Shown here: positions 4,481-38,828 of the stretch, in pieces
Numbering within the stretch: position 1 is the first letter of the stretch
Layout: each line of letters starts with the position of its first letter
Source: a virus
Taxonomy: Duplodnaviria > Heunggongvirae > Uroviricota > Caudoviricetes
Direction: 5' to 3' (one strand)
Virus record (IMG/VR): IMGVR_UViG_2537561603_000004
Location: 1-53,635 of that record
DNA: 53,635 nt
Translations under genes and position numbers: made by a program
The notes under the pieces: generated by a model
What the model was told of the DNA's origin: nothing
The model's input: the letters and a program-made list of their open reading frames with translations, nothing else
Database searches by the model: none

Positions 4481-4777
4481 TTATACCTCTGAATCAATAT
4501 CAACATGGTGGTGAGCAATGGTTTCAACCATGTACCGGATGTGTTCTGCCATGCGCTCCTGAAACTCAACATCGTCATCAAACGCACGGGTAATGGCTTT
4601 TTTGCTGGCCCCGCAGCGTTGCAAATGATCGATGCAGAGTGATTCAAACAGGTGCTGTGGAAGACCTTTTTCCATGTCGTCTGCCAGTTCTGCCTCTTTC
4701 TCTTCACGGGCGATCTGCTGGTAGTGACGCGCCCAGCTTTGAGCCTCAAGACGATCCTGAATGTAATAAGCGTTCAT
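4481..4777 (-). CDS. gam: Host RecBCD inhibitor Gam (short form)
   Basis: 98-aa translation near-identical to lambda Gam-S ([21 protein letters not shown]...); an in-frame stop 19 codons upstream precludes the long isoform here. Confidence 0.9.
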
Positions 4778-4852
4778 GGCTGAACTCCTGAAAATGGCTG
4801 TGAAAATATCGCCTGCGAAATGCCGGGCTGATTAGGTAAACAGGAAAGGGGA

Positions 4853-5239
4853 TTAGTGATTCAGGCCGTTGCCGCGTCCGTCGAGAAAAACTTCCACGAG
4901 CAAATCACGGGTATAAGTGCGCTCGATGCCGCGATGCAGATAAAGCCGTCCGCGTAAATTAGCTGATGCAGTCCAGGTACCATCTTTGTGTTTGACCAGC
5001 ATTCCTGGCATGACCGCACCGCGATTAACGGTCTGCGTTCCGTAATGTTGATGAACCATAAAAACTCCTGCCCGTAAGCTGGGCTGCTGAACATATAGAG
5101 ACTTCTGCGCGCATTCAGGCGGTGGATGGCCGCCGGTTGTCATAACTAAGCCGCCTCGTTGAAGCGACTGAGGTATGAAGTGTTGAGTTGATTTCAGCTG
5201 GTCACACCGACGTTCACGCGTCCGTTTCACCCCTCGCAC
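4853..5239 (-). CDS. Hypothetical early-left protein; possible N-like antiterminator and/or Kil-position ORF
   Basis: 128-aa ORF with GTG start just downstream of the OL-like motifs; arginine-rich N-terminus (KRTRERR) reminiscent of N-protein ARM; its 3' end occupies the position of lambda kil. Assignment is by position and composition only. Confidence 0.3.
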
Positions 5240-5343
5240 TCCCCGAAGCCTGCTGAAATCAAGCTGCGGATCTAAGCGGTCATCGCAACGGTGAATCAGG
5301 TGGTTGCCGTATCGTTGTGTTGTTGCGACATGGTGATGATAGC

Positions 5344-5381
5344 CATTGCTATTGGTGATATCAATACTTATTGCTATTATT
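5344..5381. promoter_or_regulatory. Putative leftward operator/promoter (OL/PL-like) with TTGCTATT motifs
   Basis: Motif TTGCTATT at 5346-5353 and 5371-5378 matches the motif repeated in the repressor/cro intergenic region (7146-7153, 7171-7178). Confidence 0.35.
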
Positions 5382-5610
5382 AAATGTGTTTTGATATTAA
5401 ATGTTTGATAGCAAAAAGAATTAATTTTGTGACTTGCATCGCATAGCGATAACTGAAGCGAGGTCGTGGTGGTTTTTTGAACGGTTTGTGTGATGAGGGG
5501 AAGGCAAAAGAAAACCCGGCACTGGGGCCGGGTTTAGATGGATAAGAAAGGGTAATAGGGAATGAAAAATCGCTTTGCGTAATGCAAGGTGGCGAGCAGT
5601 TTCTTAAGCA

Positions 5611-6051
5611 CTAAAGAAAAAAGTACATTGATAGCTTATAAAGACCTGTTCCTGCAGCGATGATTGCTGGAACACCAAGCAATACCGCAAGCTTTGCGTC
5701 TGAAACCTTTCTATCGACAGCATCGATGGAGGGTTTTTTGGCTAGTGAATCTTTTATTGAATCGAGTCGCTCCAGAACAGCGATCATGTTTCTGTCGATA
5801 GATTTGACATCTGTCTTAAGCTCATCAACGTCACGTCGGATATAGGACACATCAGACTCAAGCTTTGCAACTTTCGATTCAAGCACATTATTACTCCCAG
5901 AGCCACCGCTACCACTTGATTGTAGCATAGGTACATTACCGCCAGACATACCAGCTGATTGAGAAAATGCTGCAGTATGCAAAGATGATGATCTTGCCGC
6001 TTGTTCAAGCTTTTCAGTTAGGTTTGGAGCTTCGTAATAACCGTGTTTCAT
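5611..6051 (-). CDS. Coiled-coil protein with C-terminal transmembrane anchor
   Basis: 146-aa ORF; central heptad-like region (KVAKLESDVSYIRRDVDELKTDVKSIDRNM) and hydrophobic C-terminus (LAVLLGVPAIIAAGTGLY); AT-rich; downstream of and co-oriented with the repressor. Confidence 0.5.
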   Translation of the reverse strand: MKHGYYEAPNLTEKLEQAARSSSLHTAAFSQSAGMSGGNVPMLQSSGSGGSGSNNVLESKVAKLESDVSYIRRDVDELKTDVKSIDRNMIAVLERLDSIKDSLAKKPSIDAVDRKVSDAKLAVLLGVPAIIAAGTGLYKLSMYFFL

Positions 6052-6059
6052 TGTTAATA

Positions 6060-6329
6060 TTATGACTTATTGGTTTTAGCTCTATCATGCTGATCGCGAA
6101 TAAAGTCAGCGAGTTTAAGCATTAAATCTTCCGTCATGCGAATTGTTGCAATGTTGTACTTTACGTTTTCAGTGTCATTACTACCATCAGCGCCCCATTC
6201 TGTAACATGCTGAAAGAAAGATATGGAGCCTAAGCGATCGTCATCTTCCCCAAAAGATGAATATCCAAATGCATCAGCATATGCATCTACACAGTTATTT
6301 GATTTTTTTATAAGTTTTTTATCACTCAT
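6060..6329 (-). CDS. Hypothetical acidic protein
   Basis: 89-aa ORF immediately downstream of the repressor gene, same strand, AT-rich. Confidence 0.45.
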   Translation of the reverse strand: MSDKKLIKKSNNCVDAYADAFGYSSFGEDDDRLGSISFFQHVTEWGADGSNDTENVKYNIATIRMTEDLMLKLADFIRDQHDRAKTNKS

Positions 6330-6408
6330 TTTTGCCTTTCCCGTAATGTTATTTTTATAAAGAATTCTTTCAGCGCATTACCCAAAAGCCTCATCAGCAC
6401 GCAGCTGA

Positions 6409-7101
6409 TTATCCGTGTTTCCTATACGTCTGCGGCATACTGCCAATAACCTTCCCGAAAATGAACACCCGGTTCATCTCGTCTTTCTCGATCGGGTCCC
6501 ACGGTGAGTAGCTCTTGTTATCAGAGATAACCAGTAGCTTATCTTTCATCATTTGCAGGCGCTTTACATGGGCTGTGTCGTCGTATAGAAACGCATAGAT
6601 ACCATCACCGTCGAAAGATTTAACCGTGATATCAACGAACAGCAGATCACCTGGTTCGATCGTTCCTGACATGCTGTCACCGCGTACGTTAATGATGCGG
6701 ATATTTTCTGCCTTCCTGCCATCGAACATGTGACGAGCATCGTCAAACGAGTACTCAACCGAGCGTAGGACTTCTACAAACTCACGGTTGATGACGCCCG
6801 GCCCAGCACTGACTTCTATATCAAGAACGTCAATCTTGAAGTATTTGGAATGGTTGACAGCAGGCTTTCCTGATTGTTGACCGTCATTTCTCATCGGGCC
6901 TATGCCTGATGAGAGCCACTCTGTTCGAACACCCAATGCATTAGCTATTTCAACAATTTTTGTTGAGCCGCGCGCGTTGCCGCTTGTCAGTCTCCAGATT
7001 GTGGGTTGAGCTACGCCAGACGCCTTTGCAAGAGCGCCTTGAGACATTCCAGATTGTTCCATCGCTAGGTTTAAGCGATCAGCAAGAGTTTCTTTTTTCA
7101 T
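6409..7101 (-). CDS. CI-like prophage repressor (HTH_XRE + S24 LexA-like peptidase)
   Basis: N-terminal HTH (MSQGALAKASGVAQPTIWRL), C-terminal S24 motifs (VRGDSMSGTIEPGDLLFVD serine region; HVKRL lysine), possible Ala-Gly cleavage site (VSAGPG). ATG at 7099-7101 preferred over the TTG at 7137 used by the ORF track. Confidence 0.85.
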   Translation of the reverse strand: MKKETLADRLNLAMEQSGMSQGALAKASGVAQPTIWRLTSGNARGSTKIVEIANALGVRTEWLSSGIGPMRNDGQQSGKPAVNHSKYFKIDVLDIEVSAGPGVINREFVEVLRSVEYSFDDARHMFDGRKAENIRIINVRGDSMSGTIEPGDLLFVDITVKSFDGDGIYAFLYDDTAHVKRLQMMKDKLLVISDNKSYSPWDPIEKDEMNRVFIFGKVIGSMPQTYRKHG

Positions 7102-7211
7102 AAGTTTTAATTTATACGCTTGCGTATTGATGGTCAAAACACGTTTTGCTATTGAATGGGTTGATACGCATTGCTATTATCTGTTCATTGCAATACCAAT
7201 AGGAATTGATA
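7102..7211. promoter_or_regulatory. Divergent PRM/PR-like promoter-operator region
   Basis: Intergenic region between divergent repressor and cro-like genes with repeated TTGCTATT motifs and an inverted copy (cattgcaata at 7186-7195). Confidence 0.5.
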
Positions 7212-7439
7212 ATGACAAATCAAACCATTCAACTCGCAATCAGTATTACAGGTAGTCAAAAACGACTGGCAGATCTATGCGGTGTAGCCCAACCCACTGT
7301 TTGGCGTTGGCTACACGGTGGCGGAATTGATGCCCGCTATGTAATGAAAATTGTCTCAGCCACTGGTGGAAAGATTAAACCAGCAGATATTCGTCCCGAC
7401 CTCGCACCATTGTTTAACGCGAGTAATTCTGCCGCCTAA
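7212..7439 (+). CDS. Cro-like HTH regulator
   Basis: 75-aa protein divergent from the repressor; HTH-like segment (LADLCGVAQPTVWRWL); ATG at 7212 preceded by aggaa. Confidence 0.7.
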   Translation: MTNQTIQLAISITGSQKRLADLCGVAQPTVWRWLHGGGIDARYVMKIVSATGGKIKPADIRPDLAPLFNASNSAA

Positions 7440-7463
7440 ACTGCGGCGTTAACTGATAAGGCA

Positions 7464-8009
7464 ATGACTATGCAACCACTTACATACCAACAGACTAGCG
7501 GATTTAGCCCGACAGCGGTGATAAATCGTTCTCAAACAAAACAGGTGCCAGGCCACGAAAAAATCCGTGATGCCGTCCGCGCCTGGTCGGCTGTAGATAA
7601 TCAGGATGTCGTTGCCACACTCATTGTGAATGAGTATCGGGAGCAGGGCGGCGGCACCATCGATTTCCCTGATGATGTCAGCCGTGCACGCCAGAAGCTG
7701 TTCCGCTTCCTCGATAACAAATTCGATTCTGAAAAATACCGAAATAACGTGCGTGAATTGACCCCGGCAATTCTGGCGGTACTACCGCTGGAATATCGCG
7801 GCCACTTGGTTGAGCAGGATAGCTTCATGGCTCGGCTGGCTGAAATGGAAAAGGAACTCAGTGAGGCAAAACAGGCTGTCATTCTCAACGCACCACGCCA
7901 CCAGAAACTGAAGGAGATGAGTGAAGGCATTGTGTCGATGTTTCGTGTGGACCCGGACCTGGCTGGTCCATTGATGGCGATGGTCACCACCATGCTGGGG
8001 GCAATATGA
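7464..8009 (+). CDS. CII-position regulatory protein (YdaT-like, tentative)
   Basis: 181-aa ORF between cro-like gene and O, the position of cII; family assignment from weak recollection only. Confidence 0.4.
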   Translation: MTMQPLTYQQTSGFSPTAVINRSQTKQVPGHEKIRDAVRAWSAVDNQDVVATLIVNEYREQGGGTIDFPDDVSRARQKLFRFLDNKFDSEKYRNNVRELTPAILAVLPLEYRGHLVEQDSFMARLAEMEKELSEAKQAVILNAPRHQKLKEMSEGIVSMFRVDPDLAGPLMAMVTTMLGAI

Positions 8010-34085: not shown

Positions 34086-34302
34086 ATATTGCCAATAAAA
34101 AAAGGCCGGAAAAAATAAATTTTCCGGCATGCTACATAAATCCCGACCAAAGGGAGTGAAGATATTAACACTAATTTTCCGCACTGAAGTTGTCACCCCA
34201 AAACTTTATACAACATTGCACTCGGTTGCATGTATTCGCATGACAAATATCGGTGATAGCATATATCCACAATTATTTTTAATGAATGCAAAGAGGATGC
34301 GT

Positions 34303-35343
34303 ATGGTTGATTTATATTCGCCTACTCAGCTTGTACAGGTGGTTAATGCTGTAGATGTACAAAAACAACTAAATGCGTTGTTTACCAGTTTGTTTTTTAC
34401 TCGCTCGGTAATGTTTGAATCGCGCGATATTATTCTTGATACAATCGACGATCCAAATATCCCAATTGCAGCGTTTTGTTCTCCTATGGTGGGTAGTAAA
34501 GTTTCACGTGACGAAGGGTACGAATCAAAAACAATTCGTCCAGGCTATATGAAGCCGAAAAGCAGCATTGATCCAAATAAGTTAGCTGTGCGCCCTGCTG
34601 GTGTATCACCTGAGCAATACAATGCTTTTGGGGCGCGTAATATTAAAGTTAAACAGGCGATTGTAAATCAAGCTAAAGCTATTCGTGCACGTATTGAATG
34701 GCTTGCTGTTCAGGCAATCACAACGGGGAAAAATATCATTGAGGGCGATGGTATTGAACGTTATGAGCTGGACTGGAATATTAAACCACAAAATATCATC
34801 ACTCAGTCTGGCGGTGCTGAGTGGTCAGGTAAGGATAAAGAAACTTTTGATCCAAATGATGATATTGAGAGCTACGCAGAATTTAGTGAGGGCGTCACTA
34901 ATATTATCATTATGGGCGGTAATGTATGGAAGAAATACCGTTCATTCAGAGCGATAAAAGAGGCTCTGGATACCCGTCGTGGTTCTAATTCCGAACTGGA
35001 AACGGCCCTTAAAGACCTTGGTGATTCGGTGAGTTTTAAAGGGTATATGGGCGATGTTGCGATTGTTGTTTACAGCGGGCGTTATACCGACGAGGACGGA
35101 ACAGAAAAACATTTCCTTGATCCTGATTTGATGGTGCTTGGCAATACGGCTCTTCAGGGGATTGTCGCCTATGGCGGTATTCAGGATCCGGAGCTAATCC
35201 GAATGGGGCTGACTAAAGCCGAACTTGCACCGAAAAACTATATTGTGCCTGGTGATCCGGCTATTGAATATGTGCAGACACATTCAGCACCACAGCCAAT
35301 ACCGGCCCGCATCAATCGTTTTGTTACCGTTCGCATTGGCTAA
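34303..35343 (+). CDS. Element-encoded major capsid protein, divergent homologue of lambda gpE
   Basis: ~346-aa protein with clear but partial similarity to lambda gpE along its length (e.g. TRRGSNSELETA.KDLG...GDVAIVVYSG); ATG at 34303 with RBS aagagga. Confidence 0.8.
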   Translation: MVDLYSPTQLVQVVNAVDVQKQLNALFTSLFFTRSVMFESRDIILDTIDDPNIPIAAFCSPMVGSKVSRDEGYESKTIRPGYMKPKSSIDPNKLAVRPAGVSPEQYNAFGARNIKVKQAIVNQAKAIRARIEWLAVQAITTGKNIIEGDGIERYELDWNIKPQNIITQSGGAEWSGKDKETFDPNDDIESYAEFSEGVTNIIIMGGNVWKKYRSFRAIKEALDTRRGSNSELETALKDLGDSVSFKGYMGDVAIVVYSGRYTDEDGTEKHFLDPDLMVLGNTALQGIVAYGGIQDPELIRMGLTKAELAPKNYIVPGDPAIEYVQTHSAPQPIPARINRFVTVRIG

Positions 35344-36687: not shown

Positions 36688-37830
36688 TTAACTCCTTATT
36701 AGAGAGTAAATTCCATCCTCTTTAAGGAAGTCTATTACTTCAAAGAATGAGATAAAGAATTCCCAAGAACCAAAAGCATATGCATGAATTTCGTAAGGTG
36801 CAAAATGGAATCTAAATCCATCACTATTTATTGTGAACGAGTCTAAGTTACTATCCATGATACCCGTTGCAAACGTACTAATGTCGTCCTCACTTGGTTT
36901 TTCACCAGTTTTCTCCCAAAATTCACGAGCTGATTCAGAGATTATTTTTTGTTTTATCTTATTAATCGCTTCTTGCTCTTTCCCTTCGGTAAATACATCC
37001 CATAAACTAAATTTGTATGCGTAGTCATCCTTGGTTATTACGAAATTACTAGTTTCAAAATGACTGTTAGGGTGTGCTGCTCCCGCACCATACCAATGTA
37101 CGGAATGAAGGATGCTCATGACATTTTCGTTACAGTATGAGATGTTATAACTTTCATTATAGGAACTAGTGTAAGTGTGTTTATATTCTTCATCCCAATA
37201 TGGTGTTCCTGGCCATAGTGATGTGCGTTCAGAAAAAATATGTAAAGCCGCTTTTCCTGAAAAGTAATCACTAATGAGTTTTGCTGATTTCGGTAATGTA
37301 TGGCTTTCAATTCTTGGATATGCTATTTCAATTTCATGCCCTGGGATCTTGTTATATTCTTCCTTGAAAACCTCGCTGCTAAAGTTAAATGGCCCATAAG
37401 TGATACCTTGAGATATTTCAAGTTTTTGTTGCGATGCTGCTAATCTTAAAGATCTAGATAAAATGTCCCAACCATCATTTCTCTTAAAATCAATGAATTG
37501 GAGCTTGCTTGATATGTAGGCGGGTACTTCGCAATCATCAATAAGTAATGGTATCACGAACACATCATCTGGTTTGTAATACTTTAGTTTATCAATGGCG
37601 TCATTTATTTCGCGGCGAATATAACCATTTTTCTGAGTGCTCACTTTGCTAAGGATAAGGATTATCAAGTTTGAATTAGCGAAGTTTTTTTGGATTTCAT
37701 AATCCCAGTTTACGCCAGCGGGTATATCTTTTACATCCATCCAAGGGGAATATCCTCCACTTTTTAGCCTTTCATAGATTTCTTCAGTTATCGTTTCATC
37801 TTCTTTTGCATGAGCAAGAAAAATTTTCAT
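36688..37830 (-). CDS. TIR-domain protein with uncharacterised C-terminal domain (candidate anti-phage effector)
   Basis: 380-aa ORF; N-terminal ~120 aa fit a bacterial TIR fold (MKIFLAHAKEDE...LKSGGYSPWMDVKDIPAGVNWDYEI...SNLIILILSKVS...REINDAI); AT-rich, own RBS (aagga); between the element cos and its right end. Confidence 0.7.
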   Translation of the reverse strand: MKIFLAHAKEDETITEEIYERLKSGGYSPWMDVKDIPAGVNWDYEIQKNFANSNLIILILSKVSTQKNGYIRREINDAIDKLKYYKPDDVFVIPLLIDDCEVPAYISSKLQFIDFKRNDGWDILSRSLRLAASQQKLEISQGITYGPFNFSSEVFKEEYNKIPGHEIEIAYPRIESHTLPKSAKLISDYFSGKAALHIFSERTSLWPGTPYWDEEYKHTYTSSYNESYNISYCNENVMSILHSVHWYGAGAAHPNSHFETSNFVITKDDYAYKFSLWDVFTEGKEQEAINKIKQKIISESAREFWEKTGEKPSEDDISTFATGIMDSNLDSFTINSDGFRFHFAPYEIHAYAFGSWEFFISFFEVIDFLKEDGIYSLIRS

Positions 37831-38042: not shown

Positions 38043-38828
38043 AAGCATGAAGTGAATCCGCAGATGACCCTGCGTCGCCTGCCGGATGAAGATCCGCAGA
38101 ATCTGGTGGACCCGGCTTACCGCCGCCGTCGCATCATCATGCAGAACATGCGTGACGAAGAGCTGGCCATTGCTCAGGTCGAAGAGATGCAGGCAGTTTC
38201 TGCCGTGCTTAAGGGCAAATACACCATGACCGGTGAAGCCTTCGATCCGGTTGAGGTGGATATGGGCCGCAGTGAGGAGAATAACATCACGCAGTCCGGC
38301 GGCACGGAGTGGAGCAAGCGTGACAAGTCCACGTATGACCCGACCGACGATATCGAAGCCTACGCGCTGAACGCCAGCGGTGTGGTGAATATCATCGTGT
38401 TCGATCCGAAAGGCTGGGCGCTGTTCCGTTCCTTCAAAGCCGTCAAGGAGAAGCTGGATACCCGTCGTGGCTCTAATTCCGAGCTGGAGACAGCGGTGAA
38501 AGACCTGGGTAAAGCGGTGTCCTATAAGGGGATGTATGGCGATGTGGCCATCGTCGTGTATTCCGGACAGTACGTGGAAAACGGCGTCAAAAAGAACTTC
38601 CTGCCGGACAACACGATGGTGCTGGGGAACACTCAGGCACGCGGTCTGCGCACCTATGGCTGCATTCAGGATGCGGACGCACAGCGCGAAGGCATTAACG
38701 CCTCTGCCCGTTACCCGAAAAACTGGGTGACCACCGGCGATCCGGCGCGTGAGTTCACCATGATTCAGTCAGCACCGCTGATGCTGCTGGCTGACCCTGA
38801 TGAGTTCGTGTCCGTACAACTGGCGTAA
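38043..38828 (+). pseudogene. E: Major capsid protein E, 3' portion (codons ~80-341), separated from 5' portion by the insertion
   Basis: Translation KHEVNPQMTLRRLPDEDPQNL...FVSVQLA matches lambda gpE from residue ~80 to the C-terminus, in frame with the core. Confidence 0.9.

What the first reader, a model, noticed from the sequence alone, without database searches (positions are those of the whole stretch)
5611..6329. Two-gene AT-rich cassette in the rexAB position, co-oriented downstream of the repressor
Between the repressor gene and the leftward operator-like motifs lie two small genes on the repressor strand: a coiled-coil protein with a C-terminal membrane anchor (146 aa) and an acidic 89-aa protein. 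In lambda this slot holds rexA and rexB, expressed from the lysogen. It is a likely site for a lysogen-expressed superinfection-exclusion or abortive-infection pair.
Basis: inference. Interest (0 to 1): 0.6.

Follow-up and report, generated by a model that had tools for sequence, protein, structure and literature searches.

The report
Repressor-linked membrane/partner prophage cassette
Two small genes sit just after the repressor of an E. coli lambda-like prophage; they form a portable, uncharacterised gene pair (a small soluble protein plus a membrane-anchored coiled-coil protein) that turns up wherever temperate phages keep known anti-phage exclusion genes, so it is a good untested candidate for a new phage-defence module.

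Summary
orf89 (6060-6329, minus strand) and orf146 (5611-6051, minus strand) are real genes under purifying selection. They lie between a cI-type repressor and the PL/OL region of an icd-integrated E. coli lambdoid prophage. No terminator precedes them, and a strong terminator follows at 5512-5535. orf146 has a variable N-terminus, a Gly/Ser linker, seven clean heptads and one C-terminal transmembrane helix. orf89 is a small acidic beta-beta-beta-alpha protein. Neither protein matches Pfam, NCBIfam or PADLOC at significance; both fall in PHROGs of unknown function. Among 79 IMG/VR loci holding orf146 relatives, 51 lie directly downstream of a cI-type repressor (the rexAB slot). Eleven lie downstream of mnt in P22-like immI (the sieA slot) and 7 lie in tail modules, some just upstream of the tape-measure gene (the HK97 gp15 slot). 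The membrane protein core is constant. The upstream partner comes from at least five sequence-unrelated families, and the effector's N-terminus changes with the partner. The same repressor carries four different cargos in related phages, two of them PADLOC defence candidates. Best reading: a lysogen-expressed two-component anti-phage module analogous to RexAB, with a swappable sensor and an XhlA-like membrane effector. Function is inferred, not shown.

The parts
6409..7101 (-). cI-type prophage repressor (HTH + S24 autopeptidase). The RefSeq start gives 230 aa; the mechanical ORF extends to 7137.
   Evidence: Pfam Peptidase_S24 E=1.5e-18 and HTH_3; phrog_4 transcriptional repressor E=1e-69; RefSeq WP_000712399.1.
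7109..7211 (.). OR-like region with operator repeats and divergent promoter-like hexamers. A PRM-like site lies on the minus strand (7137->7109) and ends 8 nt before the repressor ATG. A PR-like site lies on the plus strand (7152-7180).
   Evidence: repeat families D1, D6, I4, I6. These are consensus matches only; their number is not above the shuffle expectation.
6330..6408 (-). 79-nt cI-orf89 spacer with no terminator-like site. GGAAAGG lies 6 nt before the orf89 ATG. The spacer is nearly identical in E. coli prophages that carry a different repressor allele (82% aa identity).
6060..6329 (-). orf89: small acidic soluble partner protein (phrog_4231). The predicted fold is three long beta strands followed by a C-terminal helix.
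   Evidence: (AF2 pLDDT 78).
5611..6051 (-). orf146: tail-anchored coiled-coil membrane protein (phrog_3556), weakly XhlA-like.
5890..6051 (-). orf146 residues 1-54: variable N-terminal helix (residues 11-30) plus a Gly/Ser-rich disordered linker. This part changes with the partner family.
   Evidence: Alignment A2; L015 matches only residues 1-103; AF2 secondary structure.
5737..5889 (-). orf146 residues 55-105: conserved coiled coil (MLEARVAKLESDVSYIRRDVDELK core), seven heptads.
5641..5697 (-). orf146 residues 119-137: single C-terminal transmembrane helix with nearly invariant A119, K120, L121, L124, L125, G126, V127, P128, T135, Y138 and K139.
5512..5535 (-). Rho-independent terminator (9-bp stem, 6 GC pairs, T-rich tail) 76 nt after the orf146 stop. 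It is the left junction of the cargo slot: six phages with different cargo become alignable exactly from this hairpin onward.
5336..5379 (-). PL-like promoter (TTGATA-17-TATCAT) overlapped by OL-like operator repeats. It fires away from the cassette toward kil-gam-bet-exo.
   Evidence: kil: phrog_294 E=1.9e-38.

Best explanation
orf89 and orf146 form a portable two-gene accessory cassette that the prophage most likely expresses during lysogeny, by read-through from the repressor promoters. The transcript would run cI-orf89-orf146 and end at the terminator at 5512-5535, like lambda cI-rexA-rexB.

orf146 inserts into the inner membrane by its C-terminal helix. Its coiled-coil stalk and variable N-terminal peptide face the cytoplasm. 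orf89, probably a dimer, docks on that N-terminal peptide and forms a variable 'head'.

The most likely function is defence of the lysogen against other phages. In this model the soluble head senses a cue from the infecting phage, and the conserved XhlA-like membrane part then perturbs the membrane (depolarisation or premature holin-type lethality) and aborts the infection. That makes it a functional analogue of RexA/RexB.

Shown here: the gene structure, purifying selection, protein architecture, mobility, modularity and the link to repressors. Inferred: lysogenic transcription, the partner-N-terminus contact, the anti-phage role and the membrane-damage mechanism.
For: (1) Operon anatomy. No terminator lies between cI and orf89. 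The two genes are 8 nt apart. A strong terminator lies before PL.

(2) Repressor linkage across lineages. Of 79 IMG/VR loci with an orf146 relative, 51 lie directly downstream of and co-oriented with a cI-type repressor, and 11 lie downstream of mnt. These loci are not de-replicated. The repressors fall into several different classes. In P22-like phages of Salmonella, E. coli, Leclercia and Serratia, the orf89 start overlaps the mnt stop, and Pmnt/Pant-like divergent promoters lie upstream.

(3) The family occupies three classical exclusion slots: rexAB (cI-PL), sieA (between genes 16 and 9; PMC10883804) and the HK97 gp15 position upstream of the tape-measure gene (L138, L143; PMC3594210).

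(4) The slot is a cargo hotspot. The same repressor (98-100% identity) is followed by four different cargos, two of which are the PADLOC candidates PDC-M11 and PDC-M63. All cargos join the backbone exactly at the terminator. The cI-N region is a known hotspot that holds rexAB and bstA (PMC8585504).

(5) Constant effector with swappable partners. The partner families are phrog_4231, phrog_5893-type, the Zn-ribbon phrog_4293, a ~93-aa family, and others. hhalign finds no relation between the three families compared. The effector N-terminus tracks the partner while the core stays 60-80% identical.

(6) The transmembrane helix has nearly invariant Gly, Pro, Thr, Tyr and Lys positions, which is more than a passive anchor needs.

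(7) Weak relation to XhlA. Three of 15 family members hit Pfam XhlA (best E=1.9e-5), and the PHROG 'hemolysin' families score E=0.003-0.01. XhlA and SPP1 gp24.1 are C-terminally anchored holin partners that kill only together with a second holin (PMC6316719).

(8) The gene order, soluble protein then membrane protein after cI, is the same as rexA-rexB.

(9) Independent report: Mannheimia lambda-like phages carry a 161-aa XhlA-domain, single-TM gene next to cI (PMC4553209).
Confidence: 0.45

Rival explanations
1. Entry-blocking superinfection exclusion rather than abortive infection. The membrane-tethered coiled coil and its variable head wait at the cytoplasmic face of the inner membrane and intercept the incoming phage's ejection or tape-measure proteins or its DNA. 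Genome entry is blocked and the cell survives, as with SieA or HK97 gp15.
For: The cassette replaces sieA in P22-like immI and sits in the gp15 slot of siphophage tail operons (PMC10883804; PMC3594210). The family profile gives weak hits to P22-like tail-needle gp26 and Lpp trimeric coiled coils (E~0.02; phrog_1219). Membrane-anchored, cytoplasm-facing proteins that act during injection are known (SNIPE, PMC13190303).
Against: Only about 8 residues are predicted outside the membrane, and orf89 has no signal peptide or hydrophobic segment. Recognition would therefore have to occur in the cytoplasm. The coiled-coil hits are not significant and may reflect composition alone.
Confidence: 0.2
2. 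A toxin-antitoxin-like addiction or host-physiology module without a primary anti-phage role. orf146 would be a membrane toxin or stress-related tail-anchored protein, and orf89 its neutraliser or regulator. The pair would stabilise the prophage or alter envelope physiology of the lysogen.
For: The order is small acidic protein first, membrane protein second, with tight coupling. Chromosomal, apparently non-prophage copies exist in Pantoea and Erwinia. A 'haemolysin/virulence' role has been speculated for the Mannheimia gene (PMC4553209).
Against: The effector exists alone, without any partner, in Pantoea loci (L021, L022). XhlA-type proteins are not toxic on their own (PMC6316719). Both points argue against a toxin that needs an antitoxin. 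The near-exclusive link to lysogeny repressors and exclusion slots is not expected for a generic TA pair. From my own knowledge, the 'haemolysin' label stems from a name collision with the large Xenorhabdus XhlA.
Confidence: 0.12
3. A regulator of the phage's own life cycle, for example a holin accessory or antiholin or an induction modulator. It would be expressed with the repressor to tune lysis timing or prophage stability.
For: It resembles XhlA/gp24.1, which are lysis-cassette proteins. Some family members are co-oriented with late tail genes.
Against: The gene is never seen next to holin or endolysin genes in the loci examined. This prophage's lysis genes lie separately, after Q. The cassette is dispensable for the backbone: phages with the same repressor and backbone lack it. 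Partner diversity is hard to explain for a housekeeping lysis role.
Confidence: 0.1

Closest known systems
Lambda RexA/RexB abortive-infection pair
   Same: Both are two genes between cI and PL/OL on the repressor strand. Both have no terminator after cI and a terminator before PL. In both, the soluble protein is encoded first and the inner-membrane protein second. Both occupy a hotspot of mosaic cargo (PMC8585504).
   Different: There is no sequence or domain similarity (no Rex family hit at E<=1). From my own knowledge, RexB is a polytopic membrane protein of about 144 aa and RexA is about 279 aa. Here the membrane protein has one C-terminal TM helix plus a coiled coil, and the partner is 89 aa. 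The partner is interchangeable between unrelated families.
P22 SieA (superinfection exclusion A)
   Same: Homologous orf89/orf146-type pairs occupy the sieA slot (between gene 16 and mnt, within the gene 16-gene 9 interval) in P22-like phages of Salmonella, E. coli, Leclercia and Serratia. There they are coupled to mnt (PMC10883804). Both are inner-membrane proteins of prophages.
   Different: SieA is a single polytopic protein with no partner, and no similarity was detected.
XhlA (PBSX) / gp24.1 (SPP1) holin partners, Pfam PF10779
   Same: Both are small proteins with an N-terminal cytoplasmic coiled coil and a single C-terminal TM helix. Family members give weak XhlA hits (best E=1.9e-5), and some relatives are named 'hemolysin XhlA' by NCBI and UniRef.
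   Different: The window protein scores 11.5 bits against a cutoff of 34.7. XhlA sits in lysis cassettes of Gram-positive phages next to XhlB and an endolysin, and acts with a second holin (PMC6316719). Here the gene is repressor-linked, has a long variable N-terminus and is paired with a soluble partner.
HK97 gp15 moron
   Same: Both are small inner-membrane proteins. Some family members (with the Zn-ribbon partner) sit in the tail operon just upstream of the tape-measure gene, where gene 15 lies (PMC3594210).
   Different: gp15 is a single YebO-like protein. It has no coiled coil, no partner and no homology.
XhlA-domain gene next to cI in Mannheimia haemolytica lambda-like phages
   Same: It is a 161-162-aa, single-TM, XhlA-domain protein encoded beside cI in the early-left operon (PMC4553209). 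This is the same kind of protein in the same slot, in another family of Gammaproteobacteria.
   Different: It is reported as a single gene flanked by a transposase, and homology to orf146 was not tested here. Its function is also unknown; the virulence suggestion rests on the Pfam name.

Membership tests
Lambda RexAB | Homology to RexA and RexB | tested here: not met
   No Pfam, NCBIfam or PADLOC hit to any Rex model at E<=1 for either protein.
Lambda RexAB | Polytopic membrane component | tested here: not met
   orf146 has a single hydrophobic segment at residues 119-137.
Lambda RexAB | Location between cI and PL, co-oriented with cI, terminated before PL | tested here: met
Lambda RexAB | Exclusion of superinfecting phage by membrane depolarisation | not testable with these tools
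   This needs infection assays and membrane-potential probes.
Pfam XhlA (PF10779) | Score at or above the gathering threshold (34.7 bits) | tested here: not met
   The window protein scores 11.5 bits, E=0.35. Three of 15 relatives reach E<=0.01, with the best at 1.9e-5.
Pfam XhlA (PF10779) | Coiled coil plus single C-terminal TM helix | tested here: met
   description of XhlA/gp24.1 in PMC6316719.
Pfam XhlA (PF10779) | Lysis-cassette context with an XhlB-type holin and an endolysin | tested here: not met
   None of the loci examined has lysis genes adjacent. This prophage's holin lies after Q.
P22 SieA | Sequence homology and polytopic topology | tested here: not met
   No family hit and a single TM helix.
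P22 SieA | Position between genes 16 and 9, next to mnt, in P22-like prophages | tested here: met
   This holds for homologues of the pair, not for this window: L002, L013-L015, L060-L064, and 11 IMG/VR loci.
PHROG 3556 / PHROG 4231 (unknown function) | Significant full-length profile match | tested here: met
   E=8.1e-54 for orf146 and 2.2e-49 for orf89.
Known or candidate defence systems in PADLOC-DB v2.0.0 | Match of either protein, or of alternative partners or effectors, to a system model | tested here: not met
   Only weak coiled-coil noise to GajA, LmuB and PbeC. Newer catalogues could not be searched.
Moron / lysogenic-conversion cassette | Compositional contrast, presence or absence between otherwise collinear phages, own terminator | tested here: met
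   GC 0.38-0.43 vs about 0.5; same backbone with other cargo; terminator at 5512-5535.
Moron / lysogenic-conversion cassette | Transcription in the repressed prophage | not testable with these tools
   Inferred from repressor/mnt coupling only. Promoter scans of the tail-module copies were inconclusive.

The most novel reading that the evidence does not exclude
The pair is the founding example of a widespread, previously unrecognised family of modular defence systems in temperate phages of Enterobacterales. The family would have a conserved tail-anchored, XhlA-like coiled-coil membrane effector. Its N-terminal peptide would recruit one of at least five unrelated, interchangeable cytoplasmic sensor proteins. 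The module would ride behind cI, behind Mnt or inside tail operons, and would abort infection by holin-like membrane failure. That would make it a non-homologous functional replacement of RexAB, SieA and gp15.
Probability: 0.3. Interest if true: 0.75.

Novelty: new variant of a known kind. Interest (0 to 1): 0.55.

Why it matters
Repressor-linked cargo slots of temperate phages have already yielded RexAB, SieA and BstA. This cassette is common: about 3.6% of complete E. coli genomes carry this allele, and relatives occur in many enteric genera. It is absent from Pfam, NCBIfam and PADLOC v2. Its constant membrane effector with swappable partners suggests a sensor-effector logic that a two-gene clone could test directly. 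If confirmed, it would add a new defence family. It would also give a function to the puzzling 'XhlA-like' genes seen next to cI in Gram-negative prophages. Finally, it would offer a simpler system than RexAB for studying membrane-based abortive infection or exclusion.

Tried and rejected
Family searches. Pfam, NCBIfam and PADLOC scans of both proteins, of alternative partners and of alternative effectors gave only sub-threshold coiled-coil noise such as FlaC_arch, LPP, YabA, Rad50 and LmuB. I rejected these as composition artefacts.

Partner relatedness. Profile-profile comparison of the orf89 family with the ~93-aa partner family and with the 136-160-aa family found nothing (probability <1%). 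I therefore treat the partners as unrelated, with the caveat that the alignments are shallow.

Structure of orf146. The monomer model had low confidence (pLDDT 59), so no fold search was attempted.

Wider sequence searches. A PDB profile search returned only coiled coils (gp26 tail needle, Lpp, SYNZIP) at E>=0.015. An exhaustive profile search of 1.84 billion representatives with the orf89 family found 8 small relatives; two WD40-repeat proteins also matched, and I judged them repeat-driven noise. Rfam found nothing in 4700-7600.

Literature. No paper names WP_001280883, WP_244345670, ECO26_0580 or the two PHROGs. Brenes & Laub 2025 is not held. The DefensePredictor supplements contain no matching sequence, but several tables were truncated when stored. 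None of the ECOR 'PhiR' phages in GenBank carries the pair.

Promoters. Scans of the tail-module copies were inconclusive. The PLIT-like hexamers inside orf89 are not above chance.

Full report
**1. What is there**

The window is a complete lambdoid prophage of E. coli integrated at icd. Over the 1,021-nt query (window 5400-6420) it is 100% identical to strain Rb-23. Reading leftward on the minus strand, the early-left region contains these features:

- An OR-like region at 7109-7211.
- A cI-type repressor at 6409-7101 (HTH + S24).
- A 79-nt spacer.
- orf89 at 6060-6329.
- An 8-nt gap.
- orf146 at 5611-6051.
- A rho-independent terminator at 5535-5512, with a 9-bp stem.
- A PL-like promoter (5364->5336) overlapped by operator repeats that match those at OR.
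- kil, gam, bet and exo.

No terminator-like site lies between cI and orf89. The cassette has 38-43% GC against about 50% in the flanks.

**2. The genes are real**

- Both proteins match PHROGs of unknown function at E=8e-54 and 2e-49.
- Homologues occur in Escherichia, Salmonella, Klebsiella, Citrobacter, Enterobacter, Leclercia, Raoultella, Serratia, Pantoea, Erwinia, Dickeya and Xenorhabdus.
- Pairwise dN/dS is 0.06-0.17 for orf89 and 0.16-0.40 for orf146, with synonymous sites near saturation.
- The allele in this window is present in 198 of 5,426 complete E. coli genomes.

**3. The proteins**

orf146 has four parts:

- A short N-terminal helix (residues 11-30) and a disordered Gly/Ser-rich linker (31-54).
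- A roughly 50-residue helix with seven clean heptads.
- A break at KKPS.
- A C-terminal helix that contains the only hydrophobic segment (119-137), followed by about 8 residues.

With no signal peptide and basic residues before the TM helix, the predicted topology is tail-anchored, with the bulk of the protein in the cytoplasm.

Across 31 relatives the core from the Gly-rich linker to the C-terminus is conserved. This includes nearly invariant G126, P128, T135, Y138 and K139 in and just after the TM helix. The first ~50 residues are not alignable between subgroups.

The similarity to Pfam XhlA is sub-threshold: 11.5 bits against a cutoff of 34.7. Three of 15 relatives reach E<=0.01. XhlA and SPP1 gp24.1 are C-terminally anchored holin partners that are harmless alone and lethal with a second holin (PMC6316719).

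**4. Context elsewhere: the decisive evidence**

(a) Same backbone, different cargo. Phages Lambda_4C10, PhiR68_2 and PhiR30_1 have the same repressor (98-100% identity) and the same exo-bet-gam-kil arm. Each carries a different gene pair in the slot. PhiR26_1, whose repressor is the 82%-identical allele also seen in L055, carries a lipoprotein gene there. Two of the pairs are the PADLOC candidate systems PDC-M11 and PDC-M63. All of these phages become alignable with the window exactly at the terminator hairpin, which marks the left junction of the slot. The cI-N interval is a recognised hotspot that also holds rexAB and bstA (PMC8585504).

(b) Same cassette, different hosts and slots. Among 79 IMG/VR loci encoding an orf146 relative (not de-replicated):

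- 51 lie immediately downstream of, and co-oriented with, a cI-type repressor.
- 11 lie downstream of mnt in P22-like immI, between ant/arc and gene 16.
- 7 lie in tail modules.
- 10 are truncated or unclassified.

The repressors belong to several diverged or unrelated classes. In the P22-like phages of four genera, the orf89-family start codon overlaps the mnt stop codon. In L060, divergent Pmnt/Pant-like promoters lie just upstream. This is the position of sieA (PMC10883804). In some siphophage tail operons the cassette lies just upstream of the tape-measure gene (L138, L143). HK97 gene 15, the archetypal moron and an exclusion gene, lies there (PMC3594210). Elsewhere it is an opposite-strand insert among tail genes (L005, L016-18).

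(c) Modularity. The gene immediately upstream of the membrane protein belongs to at least five families:

- phrog_4231 (orf89).
- A 136-160-aa group (phrog_5893-type).
- A CxxC...CxxC zinc-ribbon family (phrog_4293).
- A ~93-aa family.
- Singletons.

In Pantoea and Erwinia chromosomes a second coiled-coil/TM paralogue takes this place, or nothing does. hhalign finds no relation between the three families compared.

Conversely, every orf89 homologue is followed by a protein of the same architecture: low-complexity N-terminus, coiled coil and C-terminal TM helix. This holds even where the sequences are no longer detectably similar, as in Serratia (phrog_5820) and Raoultella.

The effector's N-terminal ~50 residues track the partner family. 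The window, UPF_BP1 and Leclercia proteins share MKHxYYEAPNLTEKLEQAAxSSSL, although the Leclercia protein has a different TM module. That TM module is shared with proteins whose N-terminus belongs to another partner class. The simplest reading is that the partner binds the N-terminal peptide.

(d) Independent literature. Lambda-like phages of Mannheimia haemolytica encode a 161-aa, single-TM, XhlA-domain protein next to cI (PMC4553209). Its function is unknown.

**5. Mechanism**

Shown:

- A two-gene unit that is physically coupled to lysogeny repressor genes in many lineages.
- Mobility of that unit between three slots known to hold exclusion genes.
- A conserved tail-anchored coiled-coil membrane protein with interchangeable soluble partners.

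Inferred, step by step:

- The pair is transcribed with the repressor in lysogens (probability about 0.85).
- It protects the lysogen from other phages (about 0.55-0.6).
- The variable partner and N-terminus act as the sensor, and the conserved stalk and TM helix act as the effector that compromises the membrane. This follows the logic of RexA/RexB and of XhlA-type holin partners (about 0.3 for abortive infection specifically).

A blocking role at the cytoplasmic face of the membrane (Sie) is the main rival. The slots it shares with SieA and gp15 favour that rival. The almost wholly cytoplasmic predicted topology and the soluble partner argue against it.

A simple toxin-antitoxin reading is weakened in two ways. 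Partner-less chromosomal copies exist (L021, L022). XhlA-type proteins are not toxic alone.

A role in the phage's own lysis is weakened by the complete absence of lysis-gene neighbours and by the cassette's dispensability in otherwise identical backbones.

**6. Comparison and novelty**

The pair works like RexAB by position, gene order and likely logic. It is not a member of RexAB: there is no homology, and it has one TM helix rather than a polytopic protein. It is not a SieA or gp15 homologue. It is at most a remote, sub-threshold relative of XhlA. It is absent from PADLOC v2, Pfam and NCBIfam. I found no paper that mentions it, but newer defence catalogues and Brenes & Laub 2025 could not be checked. 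I therefore class it as a new variant of a known kind: repressor-linked prophage exclusion or abortive-infection cargo.

**7. Verdict**

Interest is 0.55. A specialist would not be astonished that cargo sits behind cI. However, the recurrence of one membrane effector with swappable partners across the rexAB, sieA and gp15 slots is a concrete, cheaply testable lead to a new defence family.

Noticed in passing
window 36688-37830 (-), with 34129-35343 (+) and 38052-38828 (+): A 380-aa TIR_2 + DUF3298 protein is encoded on the opposite strand inside the head module. It lies between a full major capsid protein E gene and a second, partial capsid-E ORF (profile positions 95-328). It looks like a TIR-domain moron inserted with partial duplication of the capsid gene, and is a second candidate defence gene in this prophage. 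PADLOC matches only its TIR domain (Aga_TIR, ThsB-like).
   Followed up: partly
window 9973-13881 (+) and 13918-14961 (-): A 1,302-aa inverse-autotransporter (intimin/invasin-like) gene with internal near-identical repeats, and a BD-FAE/alpha-beta hydrolase gene, are inserted between replication gene P and the nin region. This is a large AT-rich cargo block.
   Followed up: no
window 5060-5336: No N-like antiterminator gene lies between the PL-like promoter and kil. The leader is about 280 nt, and the mechanical ORF 4853-5239 merely extends Kil upstream. Related phages (Lambda_4C10, PhiR phages) share this N-less layout with YdaS/YdaT-type cro and 'cII' genes. How early-left antitermination works here is unclear.
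   Followed up: no
window 6059-6088 (-): Promoter-like hexamers (ATGATA-18-CATAAT) lie inside the 3' end of orf89 and end 8 nt before the orf146 ATG. This recalls lambda PLIT, which drives rexB alone. The match is 9/12, and the number of such sites in the region is not above the shuffle expectation.
   Followed up: no
window 7109-7137 (-): The PRM-like -10 hexamer ends 8 nt upstream of the RefSeq repressor start codon at 7101. The repressor mRNA may therefore be leaderless or nearly so, as for lambda cI. This rests on a consensus match only.
   Followed up: no
orf146 family profile (A4); L020:4481-4780: The coiled coil gives weak hits to P22-like tail-needle gp26 / 'DNA stabilization protein' and to Lpp, both trimeric coiled coils (PDB E~0.015-0.1; phrog_1219 E=1.2e-5 for the Pantoea paralogue). 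This may be compositional, or it may hint at a trimeric stalk or needle mimicry.
   Followed up: partly
L020-L023 (Pantoea/Erwinia chromosomes): orf146-core homologues sit in a conserved, apparently non-prophage chromosomal locus next to EamA-type transporter and AraC-like genes. They occur either alone (100 aa, no N-terminal extension) or preceded by a second coiled-coil/TM paralogue. These are possibly domesticated copies.
   Followed up: partly
L006-L009 5474-5854; L054 3620-4000: A 126-aa lipoprotein gene (weak BamE-like hit) follows the cassette in Citrobacter prophages. A 126-aa 'putative lipoprotein' gene is the sole cargo of the same slot in phage PhiR26_1; similarity between the two was not tested. 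The slot can apparently stack several cargo genes.
   Followed up: no
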